Origin: Atractiella rhizophila
Lineage: Eukaryota
Direction of reading: 5' to 3'
Assembly: GCA_021432655.1 (NCBI GenBank)
Contig: MU271255.1
Coordinates: 87,201 to 119,232, forward strand
DNA length: 32,032 bases
A program made the translations under genes and the position numbers. Positions 1 to 29,726 of this stretch are shown piece after piece; positions within the stretch are counted from its first letter, which is position 1; every line of letters begins with the position of its first letter. Under the pieces are notes generated by a model. It was given only the letters and a program-made list of their open reading frames with translations. It was not told the origin of the DNA and did not search any database.

Positions 1-97
1 ACACTAGTGGCCTGCGAGATAGTTTCCCGATCGTTGGCACCCATTTGCTTTTCGCATGTTGCACACATTACGATTCCGTTTCACTTCGAATTGGCAG

Positions 98-1113
98 ACT
101 CTGTTGGTTTCCAGGTACCATTTCTATCTCATGAATCGAAGCCTTCTTCTGCCTTACATTTGTCTTCCATCGAGTATATTTAGCCTGCAATCGCTGTATC
201 CTTTCCTCAACATCTATCAGGGCTGATCTTACTCCTGCTCAGTCACCGCCAGCACAAAATTTGCAAACCAGCTCTCAAGTCGCCGCGATGCAGCTGCAAC
301 GTCCACCGCCCATGCCTGCCTCAATGACACAAGCCTATCTCTCTCCCACGAATGCATACTACGGTGCTCCCTTTCTTAGTGGGTACGATCCACGATTGTA
401 TCCCGCTCCAGGATACCCCTACCTGCCTCCCTCCACCTCGCCATCGGCTGCAGCCGCCGCTGCCGCTGCCACCTCCCTCGGTTACTTGACCGGTCTCTAT
501 GGCACTTCGTATAATCATCATCACGCTGGACAACCGATCCCTGGCTTCCCTGCTCTAGCTGGTGGAGTGGGAATAGGCATGGGAGCAGGAAGTGGGGGCG
601 GGTCTAACATTGATTTCGCGCTGTTGAACGGATGGGCTGAGAACCAAAAATCAATGGAGAGGAACGCGTTGTCTACTTCTTCCTCCTCCGGGACCGGTAA
701 TGGCGACCATAGGGATACCCCCCTTTCAAGACTGCTCACCACTTCTCCGGGATTGGAGGAGCCATCTGGGAGTGGCAGTGGAGGGAGAAAGAGGAAGGCA
801 CCAGATCGAGATGGAGATCACGGGTCGGAGGTTTCGCACAAGAAAGAGAGGGTGGGAGGGACGACGCATGCGGATGATCTGGAGGCGTTGTTGTTCGGCG
901 CTTCTGTCCATGAGCGGAGAGAAAACGAAGTGAGCATCTTTCTCTGCCTATTGAAGATGAACGAGATGAGTTGATGTCAATGTACTTTCAGCAGCGACAA
1001 CACCTCTCCAGCATCTTCAATTCTCATCATCCTCAAAACGAAGGCGCAAAGGAGCAAGGCTTTGATTTCGCCAGCGCTTTGACTGGCGGTTTATTGACCG
1101 GTCGTTCGGATTT
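98..1113 (+). CDS. 3' part of a low-complexity (P/S/A/G/Y-rich) protein with a basic NLS-like patch; possibly the tail of a transcriptional regulator
   Basis: Putative exons 98-114, 243-929 and 992-1113 join in frame across GT..AG introns (930 GTGAGC..TTTCAG 991). RKRK motif present. The frame runs into the N gap and ends as ...GRSDFNWPSNHSQTQDGD* if the reversed block is read from 3283 downward (TAA at 3227-3225). The 5' end lies outside the window. Confidence 0.65.
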
Positions 1114-1189
1114 NNNNNNNNNNNNNNNNNNNNNNNNNNNNNNNNNNNNNNNNNNNNNNNNNNNNNNNNNNNNNNNNNNNNNNNNNNNN
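1114..1189. other. Assembly gap of 76 N, probably spurious
   Basis: Run of N. The 16 bp before it (1098-1113, CCGGTCGTTCGGATTT) equal positions 3283->3268 read backwards. Confidence 0.95.
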
Positions 1190-1740
1190 CGAACCACGCA
1201 ACTGTATAAGACATGAACAAATGTTGAGCTTCAGCGTGAGTCTCCGTAGAAAATATCCATTGTCGTGCCTTTCAACACGGCACAAAGGCTTGCTCGCAGT
1301 TGCGAAGTGGTTTCTCCGTTACGGACTGATACGTTTTTCTCTCCTCGTTTGCATTCGTTCCTCGACCTCCACGCAAGAAAGGAGTGAGGCTTATGCCACT
1401 TCACCTCTCCTGGTCCGAGGTAGAGGATAACGTTAAGAGCACGCGCTCTAACGATGCCTAGATCGTGTAGGTCTTGGAGACGACAACTGTCTTTCTACGT
1501 AGTAGAAACTAATAGTTCTGCGCGCTTGTTTAGTGTCTCCTTTCCTGCTACCGAAGGGACGTCCCCTCTGCTTTACGAGTGCGTATGGAAGGTGTGACTC
1601 TTGACAGTAAGGCCACACGAAACGAGTGTAGAGGTAGGGTATAGATTAAGCGTGCATAGGGTACATAGTGAGACTCGTGAGAGAGAGTCCTAAATCGGCA
1701 TCAAATGAGTCTTATGACATCAGTTCTGTGTTTCATAGTG

Positions 1741-3046
1741 TACTGGAGACATTCTAGAAACTTCGCTAATAATGCGCGTTTCATACGCGGTAACGAATTG
1801 TCGTAAGGAGAGTGAAGATATGATCTCGTTACATTCGAGACTATCATGGTTAAACCTCAGTAACTGTGCTGAACCGTCGCCCTACGCACTGGAGAGTTTA
1901 GGAACGGGTAGGAGAGATAGCGTTTCGAGCGAGCTATAGCTAGATAAACAGGTGACTCTTCCCACTTTAAGTCTGCCGACTATAAGACCCTCTGCGCAAC
2001 TCCCTCCCCTTCCTCCAAATATAAGGTATAACAAAGTTCGTACCACGCAGTAGCAAGAGAGGTCTCAGTCTAAACATAAAGCAGCATACTAGTACACACT
2101 AATTTGGCGATAGGAGAAGCGGGTCAGCGCAAGCACGTCTAAGTAGCCTATATAGTCAACCGTAAAAGTTTCCAAACTCACTTTTATTTCTGGGACTTTA
2201 GTAAACGACAGGAAGGGTCGTGAGTTAACGTCTTAAGGTCGGAAGCCCGAAGGCATTAGAAATCAACAACTGTGTTTGCTGAAGCATAACAATAGGTGAT
2301 GGTGTATACCCACAGCTTACACTCGTCGAACTCACTTTCGTAGTCACAGCTGAGCTCGACACAGAATGTAACTATTAACAGGTAAGGACTGTACTGTGCT
2401 AGCTACAAACAACTTGTAAGAAAAGTTTGGAGATAGACAAACAGTAACACAGATCTTTCTTTCTGGGAGCTATAGGTTAGATGGAGTTTCACCTCATGAC
2501 TGTCAAAGTGTCTTTTGCTTCTAGCTTACCTGTACTAGGCGCATGTGAGGAGAAAGTTCGGGTGGCTGGAGAGGAACTTAGCCACCGACTAGTCTCTTAA
2601 GTGTGGGAGAGTCCAACGTCTGTTTCTCGCGCCAAGCAGGGAAGTAGAAAGGAAAGGATGGCGACTTGTAAAGTACCTATACTGTCGTGAAAGCAGGCGA
2701 CGGTTGTCGAATCTGGATTAGTATTGCGGGCCCTACTAGAAGCTGTCCCTTTCTCCCTCCCATCCTGTGCCCTTCCCTATAATACTAGCTAAAGAACGGT
2801 CCCACCTACTCAAGTTGCTCCGCTTGCCCTTCCTCCCTCCCTGCTTCTGAGCATGCAGGAGACTGCAGTTTCACCACAGACAAGTGAAAAACAGAAGAAG
2901 CTACGCTTCACCGTGACCGCGACTTCCTTGTCTAGAACGGCCAACCTCTGTTACATGGGTACCTACCTTGCCTAGCCTTCCACCTACTTCACTAGACCAC
3001 GCTAGTACTAGTGAGTCTACTTTTGTTTCTGTTCTAACTCCTTACT
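1741..3046 (-). CDS. FAU1: 5-formyltetrahydrofolate cyclo-ligase (MTHFS/Fau1 family), about 225 aa. Readable only as the complement read left to right; it would lie at about 1427-2732 on the minus strand after un-reversing the block
   Basis: Exons 1741-1831, 1879-2043, 2513-2632, 2687-2851 and 2910-3046 total 678 nt, with all introns GT..AG. Translation: MTSVRSLKRLLRAKY...ARSISIYLSTEKGEIQTADILGDALREGKEVYIPYC...[29 protein letters not shown]...ALALKEQI...VPMDGTDRKVDEVI. This includes the family signature RxGxGxGYYDR. Confidence 0.95.
2091..2395 (-). ncRNA. Candidate intronic structured RNA, C/D-box snoRNA-like, in intron 2 of the hidden MTHFS gene (read as complement, left to right)
   Basis: The intron is 469 nt versus 47-58 nt for the others. 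TCATG-T-GTGATTA (box C-like, 2097-2103) and CTGA (2387-2390)-CATGA form a terminal stem. Internal hairpins AGCC-TTCG-GGCT and CAGCTTGAGT/ACTCGAGCTG. No guide target identified. Confidence 0.4.
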
Positions 3047-3283
3047 GCTACTTGCCTACGAACCTTCCTCCTCGTACCTTGATGCATAGTAAAGTTGACT
3101 TCCTGCTTGCTTGTTTGTTATGTCCTGCTCTTTCGCAAAGTTGTCCTAGCTACGTGCTTTATACTGACTACTATACGCTTTTATGACAGTCAATTTGTGA
3201 GGTAGTTCCTTTTCAATACTAGTAAATTAGGGGTAGAACTCAAACGCTCACTAATCTCCCGGTTAATTTTAGGCTTGCTGGCC

Positions 3284-4503
3284 TCTTGTCACCCCCTCTG
3301 TGCAGGGCGGTTTCCACGTACAAAATCTTCCTACGCCAAGTCCTCATGAAGGAGAGGTGTTGATAAAGATTATGGCATGCGGTTTGAACCCGATGGATCC
3401 AGTGATGCATGATTTGAACCTGTTTGTTCCTTCTTATCCGTTCGTTTTTGGAGGATGTGGAGTAGGAATCGTGCAAGATGTTGGGGAAGGCGTGAAGAGA
3501 TTTAAGAACGGCGACAAAGTGTGAGTGTGCTCTTGCTGGACCCACTTAATTTGGGAGATAAGGCTGAGCAGGTTGTGACAGGATGAGCGGAGGGATGGGA
3601 GGTGCTTTCCAACAATACAGGATAGTTGAAGAAAACCTGGTCTTTCGTGTCCATCTCTCCCCTTTCTTACCATCTCGGTTTTTTCTGAAGTTGCAAATAT
3701 AGGTACCTGACAATCTCAGCTTTGATGAAGCTGCGACCTTCCCCGTTCCGTTAGCCACAAGTGTTATTGGCCTTTTCGATGATTTTCCGCACGGAATTGG
3801 CCTGAACCCTGACTTCTCCTTGAAGGAAACTTGTAAGGGACAGACGGCCCTCGTCATTGGCGGAAGCACTTCTGTTGGGCAATATGGTTTATCTTTCTTT
3901 TTATTGCAGTAGTGTACAAATGCTAACAAGTTCACAGCAATCCAACTCCTCAAGTTGCTCGAATTCGCCAAAATCATCGCCTATGCTTCGAACACGCACG
4001 CACCTCACCTTAAATCCCTTGGTGCGACAGAGGTAATTGATCGCCACACCATATCGCTCGATCAACTCGGCTCCAAGCTGCAAGAACCAAAATTTGACGT
4101 GATCGTGGACATTGTTGGTACTCCAGAATCGCAGAAGGCAGTATGCGACTGTCTGCGAAATGGAGGGAGATTCCTCAATGTCAACATACGATTGCATCCA
4201 GGGATCGAGGAGAGGCTAAATGAAGGGGATAAGAAAGTCGCGAATGTTTTCGCGTCCTATAATCGAGCGTCTGTGGCTTTTCGTGAAAGGGCTTGGGAGG
4301 GAGTTCCGCTGCTGTTGGAACAGAAACATGTCCTTGTAAGTTTTACTTTTGATGTCAGTTCTCCAGTTGACGGTTGGTATTGGTAGCCATGTAGATACGA
4401 GGTATTGCCTGGCGGTCTGGCTGGCATCGTCCCTGGGATTGAAAGGTTGAGGAAGAAAGATATCAGCGGGATAAAACTTATTGGTCGCCCCTTTGATGAA
4501 TAA
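3284..4503 (+). CDS. MDR-superfamily NADPH oxidoreductase, enoyl-reductase-like (GroES-like plus Rossmann domain), copy 1. Its first 17 coding nt sit in the reversed block (ATG at 1206-1204 read backwards)
   Basis: Spliced product MSTHQALVTPSVQGGF...GEVLIKIMACGLNPMD...VGEGVKRFKNGDKV...VPDNLSFDEAATFP...ALVIGGSTSVGQYAIQLLK...HLKSLGATEVIDRH...ISGIKLIGRPFDE*. Four GT..AG introns, stop TAA at 4501-4503. Confidence 0.9.
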
Positions 4504-4658
4504 AATGGTTGTCAGAGAGCTCATGCCATTTGTCAATTAAAATTTGCAGAGCACCAGTATTCTCAGTTACAAAGGCTTGATCTGAACAGGCATTAGAATG
4601 ACAAAAGATGAAGTGAGCAAGATTGCACATAAGTGACTTCATCTCTTCAAGTTGCCAC

Positions 4659-5888
4659 TTACGTTTCAAAAGGACGTGTTAGCAATTTGAAACCACTGAT
4701 CTCCTTCCTCCTCAAACGATCAACGCCCTGTTCAACACTAGTGAAGCCACCGTCCAAAACTTCGTAGCGTGTTCCCTATGCAAACCTAAGTTAACATGCA
4801 CAGGAACTATACAACATTCTCTTACAATAAAGACCTTCTTCTCAAGTAATTCTGGGACGCGTTTCTTAGCGTGTGTCCGTATCTTTGACATGTTATATGC
4901 TCCAAAGACGCTGCAGATTCTTTTTCCCTCTTTCTCGGCTCGCTCCTGGATTCCCTTGTGCAAGTCGACGCAGCAGTTCAAAAACCCTCCTTCAGCTTTG
5001 AGGCAATCAAGTGCAATGGACTGCGACTCTAACGTGCCGACAACGCTGTCAATCACGATGTCGCAGGGATCAACTATCCCCGGAAGCTGGAACAAGGCAT
5101 CTGACCAACGATCTAGAACGCGTGTTGCACCCAAGGAGGTGAGATACGCCGCATGCTTGCTGGAAGCGTATGTCACAATTGTTTCGAAACCGAGGAACTT
5201 TAGCGTTTGAATGCCTGTTCGTCGAAAAGATAAAGCTTTTTTGTGGAAAGGATAGAGATGAAGACGAACAGTATTGGCCGACGCTGCTGCTTCCACCAAT
5301 GACGAGAGCGGATTTGCCCTTGCAGGGTTGATCCGTCGCGAAAGTTGGGTTGAGGCCCAAGCCGACGGGGGTTTCGTCCATTAATCCTATTACTGCTGTA
5401 CCGAAGCATACAGGGAGCGTGGCTGCTTCCTCGAAGCTCATGTTGTCAGGTACCTGTAAAATCAGAAGTGAGGGACCTGTACGCGATGTTGCACGGAAGG
5501 AACGAACGGGAAAGACAATTTCGCTTGACAGAGCCAAGTATTGCTGAAAGCCGCCGCCGACGATTCCAGCCATGCTGTGAGATGCTCTGTTCACTTCTAC
5601 ACTTCTCATACGTTGAGAGAAACTGACGTACACTCGATCGCCTTCTTTGAATTCCTCTACACCCTCTCCGACAGCTTCGACAGTCCCAGCAATGTCGCAT
5701 CCGAGCACAGTGGGAAAAGAAGGAACGCAGAAGGCTCGATCGTGCATCTTGTATTCCATTGGGTTCAATCCCACAACCAAAACCTTTATCAAAACCTCCC
5801 CTTTAGAAGGAGTAGGCACATCTGTCACTTGAATCACAAAGCCTCCTTTCATCGAAGGGGTGACAAGGGCTTTCTGGTTGACTGACAT
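4659..5888 (-). CDS. MDR-superfamily enoyl-reductase-like oxidoreductase, copy 2 (paralogue, convergent with copy 1)
   Basis: MSVNQKALVTPSMKGGF...GEVLIKVLVVGLNPMEYK...LGCDIAGTVEAVGEGV...VPDNMSFEEAATLP...GGSSSVGQY...EISGFKLLTRPFET*. Intron positions match copy 1. TATAAAA at 5955-5949. Confidence 0.9.
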
Positions 5889-6789
5889 CTTGAAAGTTGA
5901 CTTTGATATGGAAGTGGGCAATGGAACCTCCAACGTTGAAATATCTCATTTTATAGATATCTCCCTTGATCGCGGCATCTCATCTAAGGGGTGGAGCGTC
6001 ATACGGTACCACTGGTGAAAGTCGAAAGTCAAAACGCCGAGAAAGCATCAGAATATCATGGACGTCTTTCTCAGCAATGTAATTCCGAGACAACTAGCAA
6101 GCTAAAGCCACGGCTTGTACACACCAAAATTCAAGAGGCATGTACATTTGAATGTCTGAAGGTCAAGAAGTGTAACTGGTTTGTAACATTCAGTCTTTCG
6201 TTTCGTCCCTCGGCGGGAGCAACGAACCTGAGTAGGCCAGTATTCTAGCCGGACAACTTGTCAGCAGCAACGCACTCGGCGCGGAGACCTCTAACAATCA
6301 AGGAGCTAGACACATATGTCCGTGTCGAGTAGGGAAATAGCTACAAGAAGAACTAGGGAGGACTTGAGTAAGCTTGAATGTGCTTGGAAAACATCAAGAC
6401 CGTTGGATGCCGTTGAGCTCAGCTGAGCCTGAACTCCAGTTACCTAAGCAAAAGGTAATTGACGTGGGACAAAGGCTGGAAGGGTGGCTGGAATCTCCCA
6501 TTCACAGGCATTATTCTCTCAACAAGAAAGTCTTGCAAAGATTTAATGGAGTGATTAAAGCACCTCCATCCGAGAAAGTCAGGCATCTCCTTCCCAGCAT
6601 TCATCAATTCAGCACTAATCCTCTTTCAGCTAGGTAACGTTGTTTAGTTAAATTTAGAATATAATATTAAATGAGGGACTTAAAGAAAATTGATATAATA
6701 GAAGCGCTCACTAATACATAACCATCCTGCCACAAAGTCCTATTGCTGCAAGTGATAGGGAAGAACCACAAATATGGCCAACTGATCGC

Positions 6790-20352: not shown

Positions 20353-23300
20353 TTATGCAACAGGTGTGATCGTCACTCGCTCCCCTGAATTCGCAACGTC
20401 TAGGGGCACAGGCGTTAGAGGAATATCAGGTTTCGGTGCTGGCGGTGCCAGGACGCTGGGTGGCGCTGGGAGAGGGATCGGAATTGGTGCTGGGAGGAAG
20501 TCGGGGACTGCCGCGACACCATTTGCTACGCCTGCAACCGCCTTCTTCGCTGCCGTTTCGGGTGACGTCGCGGGGGTGAGCGGCGCGGAGAGCTTCTGCC
20601 CATCGCTCGATAGTTCTGGGACATGTATGCCACCTGGCACGTCGACGGGTATGTCCTGGAATGGCAGATGGGATGATGACCTTTGCACCATCTCAAAATT
20701 GTTTTGTGGTGGAATCGCAGCAGGGAAGACGGGGAGATCGGGATACTTGATCGTTGGGGTTGGAGTTGGTTCGTGGAGTATGGGAGGGATGAGGAGCGGC
20801 TGAGGTTGAGGATGCTGGATCATGTTTGTTTGGATCGGAGGATGGACGGGAGGGATTGAGGCTGGTACATGAGTAGTTGACGGAAGGGGTGTTCCGTTTT
20901 GTGAGTGACTGTGGCTCAGGTTGGAGTGCTGGACCGAATATCCCATGTCGTCGCCTAGTGTCGCAGGACGAGAATACACTTCTCCTGCTCCTGCGGCAAA
21001 ATATCCAGCAGCACCCATCTTGCTCGACTCCCCGTTGTAGTACGCCGGACCGGTGCCATTGAGAGTGGGAGGATAATGAGTTTGAGTCTGCATATACGTT
21101 TGCGAGTGAATGGGTGCCGATGCGGGAGACGGGTTGAAATAATCCCGTTCCTCACGGTAGAATGCGTTCGTGCCGGTGCTTGCGTACGGAGCAGTGATGG
21201 AATCCCACGAACTATTGTTCGGTGGGGGATGGTGAGGATACTGCGTCCTTCCGAGCGTTGCGTCCATTATCCCGCCTGATTTTTGCACAGTAGGCGGTCG
21301 AGGGTTTGGGTTCGTGGATGGGAACGAATACTACATTCAACGCGCAATCAGCATCGAACACTTGGTTTGGGAAGAAGAGAAGACTGACAAGCCCCATCTT
21401 TACCAAATCGTGCGTGATCTCTGCCTCCGACAAACCCTTGACACCCATCTGCCTCCCACCATCCCACCTATCCTGATCTTCTTCGATCCTCGTCCTGAGG
21501 TTGTACGCGACTGCAACCTCATCCAACAAGCCATGCTCATTGATTGCCTCTCGATAGATGTACTGCCTTGGCGGGTCGTTAGGATTCGGGAAAAGCCGTG
21601 GGAGGTATTCTGAAAGCGTTGTACAACCTCAAAAACAGTGCTGGGGATGGAGAAAGCATACCAGGCCCTTGCTCCGCCTCCTCCTTCTGACGAATCAAGT
21701 CAGCTTTCTCCTTCTCCAATCTCCTCTTCTTCATCGAATAATCGATGGCCATGTCGTTCTTGAGGTCTATGACTTGCTCCTACTCACGTTCGAAATCAAC
21801 CCATAAACCAAACGGAACATTAAAAAAGAGTAGACGTACATTCCAGGTCTTCCAAATCAAATCTTCGGCTCCTCTCCTCTTCAGTTCCAGGTGCTTGATA
21901 TCCCTCTGATAGATCTGATTCGCAAGTCGGACTTTATCGTTCTTTTTATTCTCCATAAGCTGCATCAGGTACACAAGCTCGGGATGCGTCCCTGGAACAC
22001 CACAACCGTCAAACAGGCAAGAGAGGGAAGGACAGGGACCAACCGCGCTCTATCATTCCCAGCTCGTGTTGCACCTCCTCCGTCCGCTCCACGAAAAGCT
22101 TATCACGAAGCCTTTGGAGCTTGATTTCAAGTTTTGACATCTCCACCATACAAGTTTCGAGGTGCTGTTTTCTTCGCGCGCCTGTACGAGAACGCAGGCT
22201 TACCACCACCCCATTTCATGGCAAGAGATAGAAAGACGCACTCTCGACTTCCTGTTCCGCTCCATCTCCTTCTACAGTTTCCTCAACCTCATCCACCTCC
22301 TCAGTAGGCAACGCGAACTGCACCTCCTTCTCTCTCTCCCTTTCCCTCTCCCTCGGATTCCCATACCTCCTCCTCCCTCTCCCTCTCCCACCCCTCCCCC
22401 TCCCCCCTCCTCTCTTCCTAACGCGCGGTTTCTCCTCTCCTTCTCCCTCTCCCTCATTTTCATTCTCATTCTCGTTCTCATTCTCCGGATCCTGTTCATC
22501 CTGCTCTTGTTCGCACTCACCCTCACCTTCACCAGCGTCACCCTCTTCATCGTTCGACACGCTCCCCCTCTCCGCTTCCTCATCCGCATCGCTCCGCTTC
22601 CGCTTCTTCCCCGCGTTCAACTTGACCTCTCCCTCTCTCCCACCTTCCATGACAACAGTCGACGCGATCGTGTCTTCCATAGATACGTCTTCCTGTTCTT
22701 CTTCTTTCAGAAGCACAAGCTCGACATCTCCATTGACGACGTTGACCGCATTGGCGTTAGGAGGTGACTTCGATTTCGACTTTCCCACACCAGCCCTCTC
22801 CCGCTCCGACCCAACCGCACCATTCGATGTCGTCCCATGCTTCAACCCGTCCAAAGCGTCCCCGTCTCCCTCTCCCGCTTCTTGCTCACGGACCCCATTC
22901 GGTTTTTCGCCTTCCCCTTCTCCGTCGACATCGATTGCGGATAGGGGCGACGAGGCATTCGCCGCGTGTCGTTTGTCGTCATCGACCGCGTCGTCTTGGT
23001 CGTCTTCTGGGATGTCGTGGTCTAGTTCGACTTGGTGTAGCGATGCTGAGCGGAGTGTGCTTGTTGTCGAACCTGAGAGAAAGGAGTCAGTTCCGGTCAC
23101 GGCTCAGTGAGAATGTCAGGGATGAACTACGTCAAAGATGACAAAGAGTGATGAACTTTAATTGTCACAGTGAACCAGTCAAAGGCATATGGTGTTTTTC
23201 AATGATGAAAGAAGGAAAATCTTGATGCTTATACTGCGGTGTCTAAAAAACACGTCCAGAAAGTACTCAAACGCCAGAAAGAAGGTGAAACTCCTCTTTC

Positions 23301-23912
23301 GAGGGAAATGCACAACGACAACCCTCCTTTCAATCACTAGCAATAAAGACACTCACCCTCTTTTCGCTCCCTCGCTCTCCTCTCCTTCTCTTCAGCCTCT
23401 TCCCTCCGCTTCCTCGTCCTAGTGCTCGTCCCACCTCTGCTCCCAGGACCACCAGCACCACCCCTCTTACCTCTCCCTCTCCGTCTCGCCGCCTCCTTCC
23501 CACCCAAAGCACCCAAACTTCCACCCGCAGAACTCGCCAAAGCACCATCAGCCGTCGCCAGCGCAGGCCCACCCGCAGGTTCCCGAATCTTCCTAGGCCT
23601 CCCAGGTCTCCGTTTAGCCTTCGGCTCCTCCGGGGCGGGAGAGCTCGAGGCGGAGGAGAGGCCGGACGACTGGGCGTCGGAGTCGAGATCAGGCTCCGCG
23701 TCTCCAGAGCGCGAACGCGACGGCGGCGAGTGATCGGAGAGCAGTTCGACCCTGGGCCGGGCCTTGGCGCTCTCTCCGTTGGCGAGCGTCTGCGTCGAGG
23801 TCGGCTTCGACGGCGAGGCGGCGAGGGGAACGGTGCTCGTGGAGCTCTGCCCGCTGTGGGTGCGCGAGGAGGACGACGACGGCGGCCCTTCGTCCGGTGC
23901 GGAGGCGTCCAT
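20353..23912 (-). CDS. Sds3-like family subunit of the Sin3/Rpd3L HDAC complex, Dep1-like
   Basis: Long disordered and acidic N-terminal exons (23912 to about 23354, and about 23100-22220). Then RRKQHLETCMVEMSKLEIKLQRLRDKLFVERTEEVQHELGMIERG|..HPELVYLMQLMENKKNDKVRLA...IWKTW, an Sds3-type coiled coil. P-rich C-terminal exon ends at 20353. Confidence 0.75.
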
Positions 23913-24532
23913 TCTGTGTGTGCTGCTGACTAATCGATGGCTGTGGCTGGGCGTGGTGTGGATGCTGTTTGGCTGAGCTGAGGAGATGGACAAGTAGTCG
24001 TTTCGTCGTTTGTGCCTCAGGGGGCGCTGGAACGAAACCTAAGGGGTCCACTTCGGCAACGTATGCCGCAGCGGCAAGCAAAATTTAAAAGTTGACTCGG
24101 GAGGTGACTATAAGTATATTTCAATCTCAATCCTCAATCCAAAATATTCTCCCCTTCCTCTTCCCAAAGCCTCAGTCCGACTCTCCACTCCCTTTGAAAT
24201 TGAATTACTTTCATCATTCTACGTGCCATATCTGTCCGGTGAGCGTATCAATCATCATTTTGTTTCGATGTCGAGGTGTATTTTGAGCACAGAGCTGTGA
24301 GATTGTTGATTCGAAGGAGTTTATCAAAATTGCTCCCCATGCCTTCAGAACTTCAGAAGAAGGGTCACTAGTGACTATTCATGTTACGACGATATGAAAT
24401 TCAGAAGCACTCAGTATCAGGACGTATTGGTAGTACATGAACTCAGAGAAGAAACCTAGAAGCCACAAGCAGGAGACGAGCAAACTGGAGAGAAAAGAGA
24501 AAAAAGAAAAAAGAAAAGATACACGTAGCAGC

Positions 24533-27147: not shown

Positions 27148-28402
27148 TTAAGAAAAGGTTATGGAGTGACACTTTGCCCCTCCATTATCTGCACATCCCA
27201 AAACCGTTCCATCAGACTTCGCCAACAAGCCTGGCCAGGAGCTCTGAACTCCAGAAACCGTCACTTTGTTCCCCCAAGCTCCCGTTGCGACGGGTCCGCC
27301 AGTGACGATCTTCATATTGGCACCCTGAACCCAGTTGTGCAGAGAGGTGTCTTCATCCGTCATGAAAGAGACAACAAGAGAGTTATCGGGTTTCTGGATG
27401 ATTTGTGGCGCTCCAGCTGCACACCAGTATCAATTTCGAACAAAAGCTTGGTAAAAACGTAATCGTACTATTGTTGTTTGTCCCAGTTGGACGGTATACT
27501 TGGCTGCGAACTCCCCAGGTCTTTCCATCATCGGCAGATACAACGCTCTTGATAGTGAAGGTGCCGGTTCCCTCAGTGGTTTCGAAGACGCACATGAGCT
27601 TTTCAGCGCCATCGTTGAACTCTGCCATCACAAACAGGTCATGTTGACTGACGTTCAGAGTATGGGGAAGGCGAAAGAAGACAAACTCGCGACTCCCGGC
27701 ATTCCATCCCTCCCTGTAGTGGAACCTCCAGCAACGGTGACAGGTCCAGACCAGGAAGATCCTCCGTTCGTGCTCGTCTTGACGAGGATGTCCTGATCGT
27801 TGGCGTTATTCTCTGAGGCGTAGTAGACCTGGATGGAACCGTCGTTGGCAACTCTGCCAAAAGGTTCCTGAAAATTCTTTATCAGTAAAGATATCATTTA
27901 AATGTAAACGACAGACCCAAAGCCCATTCACTCCTGACGCAGCGCGTTCAGCGACATGCGACACAAAGCTCCAAGTCTTGCCTCCATCCGTGGATCTGCA
28001 AGCGGTGATTCGATAGTAGCTGTACGCTCCGTTTACTTTATCGTTGTTCCTGAAAGTGGCGAGGATGCTGCCATCCCTCAACTGGACGAGGTGGGGATTA
28101 TCGAGGTCGTTGGTTTGAGAAGCGATAGTTCCCCAAGCCACGAATGAGCTCCCTCCATTTGTCGACTTTGTGACGGTCAGGATGTGAGTGTCCCCTTGAA
28201 AATAGGTGAACACGGCAAGAATGGAGCCGTCGCTCAAGGTGGTAAGACGGGGATAGGTGCCACCTCCTGCTGGGTTGAGGTTGATGGCTGCAGCGTTAAC
28301 GTGAGGCACGAGAGCGGCGCGTTTGACGAGGTGGCTAGGCGTCACCGTGGAGACGGCAACAGAACAAAGAGAAGCGAAAGTGAGCAGGCTTTTGAACAAC
28401 AT
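27148..28402 (-). CDS. Secreted glycoside hydrolase family 93 (exo-alpha-1,5-L-arabinanase-like, Asp-box beta-propeller)
   Basis: Signal peptide MLFKSLLTFASLCSVAVS and a KR site. Motifs GTYPRL, NGLW|EPF, YYASEN..NDQDI, RDGMPGVA, CVFET and GAPQI. Four Asp-boxes (STNGGSSF, STDGGKTW, STNGGSSW, SADDGKTW). Confidence 0.9.
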
Positions 28403-29726
28403 TGTTACACAGACTGAGAGCGTGATAAAGTGACTATCGCCATTCAACATTCAACCTCCCTTTTATGTTGTCATCGCGTCTCTATCACAGATAATGGCAC
28501 ATGTATCGCTGTTGGCATCCTTAACGACTGCCCCGTCCTGCTGCTCATGGCCGCCGCGTGCTTCACTCTAGCGCGTAGGCATTCGCCCTTCAACTGGTGT
28601 CTACCTCCACCCAACGGTTGTACGCCTGCAGCCTTTAGAGGTCATGTCAAACACCAAGACCTCTCATGACCAAACCAAACAAGCGAACTGGCCATGTTGC
28701 CAAGTGGAGGTGACGGCTATACGTTAACAGGGCAACGAGTACACCGTGCCTCGTTGCTACTCTACTGCATCGGGAACGCTCTACTGTCATGTAGACATGT
28801 GTGCCAGAGCCATCCTTTGGTTTCTTTTAAAAAGGAACACGCTTTTGACAATGTTGAGATGGGAGAGCTCGACTTGTAAATGGCCCACCAGATATCTCCC
28901 AAGGTGGATAACGTTGATCCATCACCATTTGATTCGTCGACCAGCCACCCGCTCCCAGTCCCCGCTACCCCACTCGAGTTGGGCAAGTGCAAAAAGGTCT
29001 CATCGATTTGCTCATCGATATCAGAGCCTTTACCAGACTGTATGATTCTCATACTGCTAAGAAATTGAGCGCAAATCATCAACTTGAGTAGACCAGACCC
29101 AGACGTGACAAAGGCGTAGTCAGTCATGACGCGGTAGTACGGACGCTCGGCTCGGACAACTAGATGACATACCGGCCACCAACCTCCCCGCACCTCCCGG
29201 CTGCTTAAAGCAACGCAACGTCAAACGGAGAGGTGCAACCACCACTTCGAACTTCACAACATTCGGACTGCTTCGAGGACGTAAGTAGGCGCAAAATTGG
29301 GTCAGCCTTTCGCTATTACCTTTCTGGTTGTTATTTGTTGGCATTCGTTGGGGTTTCGTCATCACGGTGGGCACTTGTTCACCAAGTTTCCTGCTCTTGC
29401 TAGTGGTCATAGCACCGTTGAACAGCATGGTCAGAATGTTTGTCTTAATCAAGCAGAGACTTCCGCGCCTTGCTCTTGGGCAGATTATTGCAAGTTTCGA
29501 CTGAGAAGAAGCCGGGTCGCCGAAAGTAGTAGTTCGTTAAAGAGACTAGCTATGAGGTTAATTCTATTCTTCGGGTATCGTATATTATTCCTAGCAGAAG
29601 CCCCTTCCTACGTTTAAGTCATCATTTTCTGTCCAGTTTAAGGACAACTTGAATGGAGTGGATTGACGAAAGACATCACCTTTGAACATGTAGACTAATA
29701 TCTACTTTCTGTAGGATCTGGAGAAT

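What the first reader, a model, noticed from the sequence alone, without database searches (positions are those of the whole stretch)
1741..3046. Hidden complete MTHFS/FAU1 gene invisible to six-frame translation
The complement read left to right gives five exons (91+165+120+165+137 = 678 nt, ATG to TGA) with GT..AG introns. It encodes [29 protein letters not shown], the ATP-binding signature of 5-formyltetrahydrofolate cyclo-ligase. Standard annotation would miss it and could wrongly report loss of this folate-recycling enzyme.
Basis: partly seen in the sequence, partly recalled or inferred. Interest (0 to 1): 0.8.

Follow-up and report, generated by a model that had tools for sequence, protein, structure and literature searches.

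The report
Ordinary folate gene in back-to-front block
A normal fungal gene for the folate-recycling enzyme MTHFS is really there, but it is unreadable only because about 2.1 kb of this sequence record is written back to front, which is a data error and not biology.

Summary
The complement of 1741-3046 read left to right gives the stated five exons (678 nt, ATG to TGA, four GT..AG introns). The 225-aa product matches a 5-formyltetrahydrofolate cyclo-ligase profile at 70.4 bits, E 1.9e-20.

The cause is not biological. Window 1191-3282 is stored reversed without being complemented. Contigs of four public runs leave the window at 1113, and contigs of two of them enter it at 3283. They continue with letters that equal the reverse of window 3238-3267 and 1191-1220, 30 of 30 each.

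Turning the block back has three effects:
- It restores the start codon of the right-hand dehydrogenase gene.
- It restores the last 14 codons of the left-hand gene.
- It reveals a 16-nt duplicate on both sides of the N gap at 1114-1189.

A read-free word-polarity test marks only this block. In real DNA the gene is an ordinary minus-strand gene, visible to any six-frame translation.

I could not settle whether the reversal sits in a public scaffold or arose when the window was prepared. The public right-neighbour protein is 5'-partial at this boundary, which favours a public scaffold (about 0.7). Biological interest is low. The practical value is quality control.

The parts
1114..1189 (.). Run of 76 N, most likely a scaffold gap, directly left of the reversed block
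   Evidence: One search gives the N run. After the block is turned back, the same 16 letters stand on both sides of the gap (window 1098-1113 and 1190-1205), as expected of an unmerged contig overlap.
1191..3282 (.). Block of 2092 nt stored in reversed order without complementing
   Evidence: The loose ends of contigs of runs X1-X4 behind 1113 equal the reverse of window 3238-3267. Those of X1 and X2 before 3283 equal the reverse of 1191-1220. The word-polarity score is -167 nats per kb inside the block and +95 per kb outside. The best reversal-like segment is 1292-3345 at 360 nats; the next best scores 45.
1741..3046 (.). MTHFS (5-formyltetrahydrofolate cyclo-ligase) gene, readable only as the complement read left to right. 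Exons are 1741-1831, 1879-2043, 2513-2632, 2687-2851 and 2910-3046. After turning back, it lies on the minus strand at 1427-2732.
2044..2512 (.). Intron 2, 469 nt, much longer than the others. Its acceptor is uncertain by 9 nt (2513 or 2522).
   Evidence: One search scored 25 open alternatives. The pair 2043/2522 scores 71.5 bits and 2043/2513 scores 70.4 bits.
1191..1206 (.). The first 16 nt of the right-hand dehydrogenase coding sequence, stored reversed and displaced to the left end of the block
   Evidence: After turning back, the ATG lies at 3267 and the frame runs on into 3283 and beyond, reading MSTHQALVTPSVQGG.... The paralogue on the minus strand at 5945 starts MSVNQKALVTPS.
3225..3267 (.). 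The last 14 codons and the stop of the left-hand gene, stored reversed and displaced to the right end of the block
   Evidence: The turned-back sequence reads ...GRSDFNWPSNHSQTQDGD then a stop. Public protein P0280 has the same end, 268 of 268 residues identical, plus one extra K.
3283..4600 (+). The rest of the zinc-type alcohol-dehydrogenase-like gene (ADH_N, ADH_zinc_N), whose start was cut off by the reversal
   Evidence: Pfam hits. Public protein P0271, named 'partial', starts at window 3303. Spliced contigs of X3 show its introns (table 5).
288..1113 (+). Left-hand gene: a low-complexity hypothetical protein with no Pfam match. It has an intron at 930-991 and loses its end to the gap and the reversal.
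   Evidence: (the joint 929 to 992 in X3 and X4).

Best explanation
Window 1191-3282 is a stretch of real fungal DNA whose letters are stored in reversed order without being complemented. It starts one base after a 76-N gap. Because reverse plus complement is the true opposite strand, the complement of the stored text read left to right is the true minus strand.

On that strand lies an intact, intron-bearing, ordinary gene for 5-formyltetrahydrofolate cyclo-ligase (MTHFS, the yeast FAU1 / E. coli Fau family). This enzyme uses ATP to turn 5-formyl-THF back into 5,10-methenyl-THF. In the organism the gene is a normal minus-strand gene. It converges on the left-hand gene and diverges from the right-hand dehydrogenase gene.

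The reversal also cuts 16 nt off the start of the dehydrogenase gene and 14 codons off the end of the left-hand gene.

Shown: the reversal, the gene model and the family membership.
Inferred: the enzyme activity and expression, and that the error arose in an assembly or gap-handling step. I put about 0.7 on a public scaffold and about 0.3 on the handling of this window.
For: (1) Loose ends. One contig from each of X1, X2, X3 and X4 leaves the window at 1113 with the same 30 letters. These runs come from three coded samples (X1 and X2 share one); three of the runs name a study, two studies in all. One contig each of X1 and X2 enters at 3283 with the same 30 letters (table 7). These letters are found only in the reversed form of the window, at 3238-3267 and 1191-1220, 30 of 30 each.

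(2) Turning the block back restores the ATG and the first five codons of the dehydrogenase gene, in frame with 3283 onward. It also restores the end of the left gene and shows a 16-nt duplicate around the gap.

(3) Public protein P0280 ends with the 14 residues that only the turned-back order encodes. Public protein P0271 is identical to the window at every aligned residue, including four places where the X1 letters would change the residue. It is 5'-partial and starts 20 nt right of the boundary.

(4) Word polarity, trained on the rest of the window. Four of 63 1-kb windows score negative, and all four overlap the block.

(5) Gene. The five-exon model is open with GT..AG borders. Its product scores 70.4 bits, E 1.9e-20, as one domain over profile positions 4-158. 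That exceeds the 33.0 and 26.0 bits of the two separate pieces. All 9 of 9 columns that are invariant in the 122 representatives are kept, including the R-x-G-x-G-x-G-x-Y-D stretch.

(6) The profile's seed family is Pfam PF01812.
Against: - The runs laid are not the window's own strain; they differ at about 1% of letters. The real order in the sequenced strain itself is therefore inferred, not seen.
- Only 60 letters of real continuation were visible.
- P0280 carries one extra residue (K) where the turned-back window has a stop. Its contig is therefore not letter-identical to the block and may be a second copy or allele.
- The product could not be scored against Pfam's own model or folded, because the tools read the window only as stored.
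- Only 18 of 34 columns shared by 85% or more of the bacterial representatives are kept. The last 56 residues lie outside the profile alignment.
- Intron 2, at 469 nt, is about eight times the usual length in this window.
Confidence: 0.93

Rival explanations
1. The block was complemented in place, so the gene would lie on the plus strand at the stated coordinates.
For: The complement read left to right gives the gene. On that evidence alone, complementing in place and reversing cannot be told apart.
Against: The complement of window 3253-3282 agrees with the real letters before 3283 at only 7 of 30 places. The real letters at both junctions are found in the reversed form, at the opposite ends of the block. 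The flanking reading frames close only after reversal.
Confidence: 0.01
2. The reversal was made when this window was cut or prepared for the scan, for instance as a control, and no public record carries it. This is a rival only on where the error arose, not on what the block is.
For: A public contig of 7,124 bases encodes the left gene with the normal order (P0280). The right end of the block lies inside a coding sequence and is marked by nothing.
Against: The public right-neighbour protein P0271 shares the window's alleles. It is named 'partial' and lacks exactly the N-terminus that the reversal removes. With the normal order, an ATG lies 12 codons upstream of its first residue. The block begins one base after a gap, which points to an assembly step.
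Confidence: 0.3
3. The gene is a dead or untranscribed copy, and the working MTHFS of the organism lies elsewhere.
For: Intron 2 is unusually long, and no transcript evidence could be laid on the gene.
Against: The frame is open from ATG to TGA. There are four canonical introns whose ends resemble those of the flanking genes. All nine invariant family columns are kept.
Confidence: 0.05
4. The resemblance to MTHFS in a mirror frame is chance.
For: None beyond the general point that twelve frames give many open stretches.
Against: The E-values of 5.9e-9 and 7.9e-7 are for all 2091 pieces. The two hits are collinear, and the spliced product scores 1.9e-20.
Confidence: 0.005

Closest known systems
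5-formyltetrahydrofolate cyclo-ligase / methenyl-THF synthetase (Pfam PF01812): E. coli Fau (YgfA), yeast FAU1, human MTHFS. Solved examples listed: 2jcb, 1ydm, 1sou, 3hxt, 1wkc, 1sbq.
   Same: A single domain of about 200 residues. It matches a family profile over positions 4-158, and the conserved glycine-rich Y-D stretch and the invariant E and P columns are kept.
   Different: It is a eukaryotic gene with four introns, one of them 469 nt. Its C-terminal 56 residues fall outside the bacterial profile. The yeast and human names are recalled; neither protein was compared here.
Assembly orientation errors (a contig placed in the wrong direction at a scaffold gap)
   Same: The block begins next to a gap that is flanked by a 16-nt contig-end duplicate.
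   Different: A misoriented contig is a reverse complement and stays readable. Here the string is reversed only, which no DNA rearrangement can produce. In the one search made (listing only), the phrase 'reversed but not complemented' appeared only for designed control sequences in regulatory genomics. I found no paper on such errors in assemblies with that single search.

Membership tests
5-formyltetrahydrofolate cyclo-ligase (PF01812) | Significant match to a family profile over most of the domain | tested here: met
   The profile was built here from 122 representatives found with a PF01812-positive protein. The product scores 70.4 bits, E 1.9e-20, over profile positions 4-158 of 199. Pfam's own model was not run on the product.
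5-formyltetrahydrofolate cyclo-ligase (PF01812) | Conserved nucleotide-binding stretch (R-x-G-x-G-x-G-x-Y-D) and the invariant E and P residues | tested here: met
   All 9 of 9 columns invariant in the 122 representatives are kept: E60, P117, P140, R150, G152, G154, G156, Y158, D159. That this stretch binds ATP is recalled from structural work, not tested.
5-formyltetrahydrofolate cyclo-ligase (PF01812) | N-terminal basic residues of the family | tested here: inconclusive
   One of three conserved arginine columns is kept (R12). The other two are A16 and L19. The profile is gammaproteobacterial in bias.
5-formyltetrahydrofolate cyclo-ligase (PF01812) | ATP-dependent conversion of 5-formyl-THF to 5,10-methenyl-THF | not testable with these tools
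   This needs an enzyme assay or complementation.
5-formyltetrahydrofolate cyclo-ligase (PF01812) | Transcripts that support the four exon junctions | not testable with these tools
   Reads can be laid only on the window as stored, and the one read-laying run was used.
String-reversal artefact | Independent DNA continues across both borders with the reversed letters of the far end of the block | tested here: met
   30 of 30 letters at each border.
String-reversal artefact | Flanking genes become whole after the block is turned back | tested here: met
String-reversal artefact | Word usage in the block fits the reversed text better than the stored text, while the rest of the window does the opposite | tested here: met
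String-reversal artefact | Presence of the reversed block in a public record | tested here: inconclusive
   P0271 being 5'-partial favours it. P0280, from another contig, shows the normal order. No genome is held for this window.

The most novel reading that the evidence does not exclude
The reversed block sits in a public reference scaffold and was made by a gap-closing or patching step that reversed a string without complementing it. The same fault may then have hit other gap-adjacent blocks in this assembly, and in others made the same way. That would silently remove genes such as this MTHFS from annotated gene sets and feed false 'gene loss' calls in comparative studies.
Probability: 0.2. 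Interest if true: 0.35.

Novelty: already known. Interest (0 to 1): 0.15.

Why it matters
There is nothing new biologically. This is an ordinary orthologue of a well-known folate enzyme, and a gene cannot be read in the stored direction in a cell.

The practical value is quality control. If a public scaffold carries the block, three gene models are damaged. One is lost and two are truncated, and a folate-salvage step could be scored as absent for this fungus.

The word-polarity test used here found the block without any reads. It could screen whole assemblies for the same fault.

Tried and rejected
- No contig of X1-X4 lies on 1114-3282 (table 2).
- E. coli Fau in the search for homologous proteins gave 120 listed hits, all 81% identical or more. 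These were too alike for a profile. The profile came instead.
- The genome search returned only the E. coli locus, and its control genomes gave no loci.
- No whole genome is held for this window, so a second MTHFS copy and other reversed blocks outside the window could not be sought.
- Earlier notes of the scan held nothing for this place and nothing relevant by words.
- Three literature searches were seen as listings only, and no paper was read:
  - The species plus 'genome' gave 12 papers.
  - 'reversed but not complemented' gave 10 papers, 4 listed, all about designed controls.
  - FAU1 plus the enzyme name gave 8 papers.
- Aragorn found no tRNA in the block in either orientation.
- The second most reversal-like segment (29129-29650, 45 nats) belongs to a smooth tail (35, 34, 31, 28 nats), so I read it as noise.
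- Long mirror-frame open stretches elsewhere lie in regions with positive word polarity and ordinary genes. Examples are 28146-28976 (277 aa) and the 22-24 kb region.
- The spliced product was not sent to Pfam, the PDB search, the fold tools or the protein databases, because it is not a translation of the window as stored. It therefore stays open whether the species' public protein set holds this MTHFS.
- Rfam was not run on the block for the same reason.

Full report
**What is in the sequence**

The window looks fungal. It has short GT..AG introns of 50-62 nt that spliced contigs of public runs skip (table 5). In ordinary frames it carries genes for actin-family, Fes1, aldehyde dehydrogenase and zinc-type dehydrogenase proteins. 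Between about 1200 and 3270 no ordinary frame is open for long, whereas the complement read left to right is.

With the stated exon lengths, exactly one open model exists:
- Exons: 1741-1831, 1879-2043, 2513-2632, 2687-2851, 2910-3046.
- Total length: 678 nt.
- Introns: 47, 469, 54 and 58 nt, all GT..AG.

**Is it MTHFS?**

The product cannot be referenced as a translation of the window, so I did not type it into any tool. I tested it in the script box instead.
- I took E. coli Fau from a named record. It matches Pfam PF01812 at 163 bits.
- One of its close relatives, P0002, was searched against 1.84 billion representatives.
- I built a profile from 122 of the 150 returned proteins. The other 28 were dropped for lengths outside 178-235 aa.

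Against 2091 stop-to-stop pieces from twelve frames, only two pieces hit, both in the complement form (E 5.9e-9 and 7.9e-7). The best ordinary-frame piece had E 3.4.

The spliced product scores 70.4 bits (E 1.9e-20) as one domain over profile positions 4-158. The alignment runs across the first three junctions without large gaps, and the score exceeds those of the two separate pieces. All nine columns invariant in the 122 representatives are kept. Of the 34 columns shared by 85% or more of the representatives, 18 are kept, and the last 56 residues lie outside the alignment.

The acceptor is therefore uncertain by three codons.

**Why is it unreadable?**

Runs that hold the flanks were found: X1 and X2 hold 0.63 and 0.61 of the sampled words, and X3 holds 0.30. 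Their contigs were laid on 1-6000.
- One contig each of X1, X2, X3 and X4 leaves the window at 1113 with the same 30 letters.
- One contig each of X1 and X2 enters at 3283 with the same 30 letters (table 7).

Those letters occur in the window only in its reversed form, and at the opposite ends of the block. The letters behind 1113 equal the reverse of 3238-3267. The letters before 3283 equal the reverse of 1191-1220. The complement of 3253-3282 agrees at only 7 of 30 places.

So the block 1191-3282 is reversed, not complemented. A real inversion gives a reverse complement, so a plain reversal cannot arise in DNA.

**Checks on the reversal**

Turning the block back gives an ATG at 3267 in frame with the dehydrogenase gene. 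Its start resembles that of the paralogue on the other strand. Turning back also completes the left gene, adding 14 more codons and a stop. It places the same 16 letters on both sides of the N run, as expected of an unmerged contig overlap at a scaffold gap.

A test that needs no reads agrees. I took six-letter word frequencies from the rest of the window, made them strand-symmetric, and left out each tested chunk in turn.
- Four of 63 1-kb windows fit the reversed text better, and all four overlap the block.
- The best reversal-like segment is 1292-3345 at 360 nats. The next scores 45 nats and belongs to a smooth tail.

This is therefore the only reversed block in the window at that resolution.

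**What the real locus looks like**

After turning back, the gene lies on the minus strand at 1427-2732. Its end faces the end of the left gene, whose stop is at about 1246. Its start lies about 530 nt from the start of the dehydrogenase gene, which is transcribed the other way. This is an ordinary arrangement.

**Where did the error arise?**

Two public proteins, both named as from Atractiella rhizophila, flank the block.

P0271, the right neighbour, comes from a 119,232-base contig.
- It is identical to the window at every aligned residue, including four places where the letters of X1 would change the residue.
- It is named 'partial' and starts at window 3303.
- It lacks 12 residues that the turned-back order would supply, with an ATG.
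- This fits a gene model made on a scaffold that already carried the reversal.

P0280, the left neighbour, comes from a 7,124-base contig.
- It has the C-terminus that only the normal order encodes.
- It then has one extra K where the turned-back window has a stop.
- Its contig therefore differs from the block by at least a small indel and is probably another copy or allele.

I cannot settle the point. I lean about 0.7 to a public scaffold. Whether the 7,124-base contig also carries an annotated MTHFS is open.

**Limits**

- The laid runs differ from the window at about 1% of letters, so they are relatives and not the sequenced strain.
- Only 60 letters of real continuation were visible.
- Transcript support for the junctions, Pfam's own model, a fold, and a search of the species' protein set with the product were all out of reach. 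The tools read the window only as stored, and I did not type changed sequence.
- The names FAU1 and human MTHFS, and the role of the glycine-rich stretch in ATP binding, are recalled.

**Verdict**

The 'hidden gene' is a record error, a block written back to front, that masks an ordinary gene. Biological novelty is nil. The value lies in flagging the error and in a simple way to find others.

Noticed in passing
window 1098-1113, and 1190 plus 3268-3282 (the latter stored reversed): The same 16 letters stand on both sides of the 76-N gap once the block is turned back. This looks like an unmerged contig overlap: the contigs of the public runs carry one copy and no gap.
   Followed up: partly
window 3283-4600 (+) and 4665-5945 (-): Two zinc-type dehydrogenase-like paralogues lie tail to tail. 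They are 43-56% identical at protein level.
   Followed up: no
window 3520-3582 and 4335-4387: The public model P0271 uses splice sites that differ from the joints seen in spliced contigs of run X3 at two introns. It lacks two residues at one intron and has six extra residues at the other.
   Followed up: no
window 22000-24200: This region is G+C-rich (0.57) and strongly skewed, with low complexity. Nearly all twelve frames, mirror frames included, are open for 100-300 codons.
   Followed up: no
window 2044-2512 (stored coordinates): Intron 2 of the MTHFS gene is 469 nt, against 47-62 nt for the eleven other introns seen in this part of the window. No tRNA was found in it. It was not searched for other RNAs.
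   Followed up: partly
window 3225-3230 (stored), the end of the left gene: Public protein P0280 ends with one more residue (K) than the turned-back window encodes. This fits a one-base difference in a short T run between its contig and the window.
   Followed up: no
window 29129-29650: This is the second most reversal-like segment by word polarity, at 45 nats against 360 for the block. It is probably noise in an intergenic stretch before the aldehyde dehydrogenase gene.
   Followed up: partly
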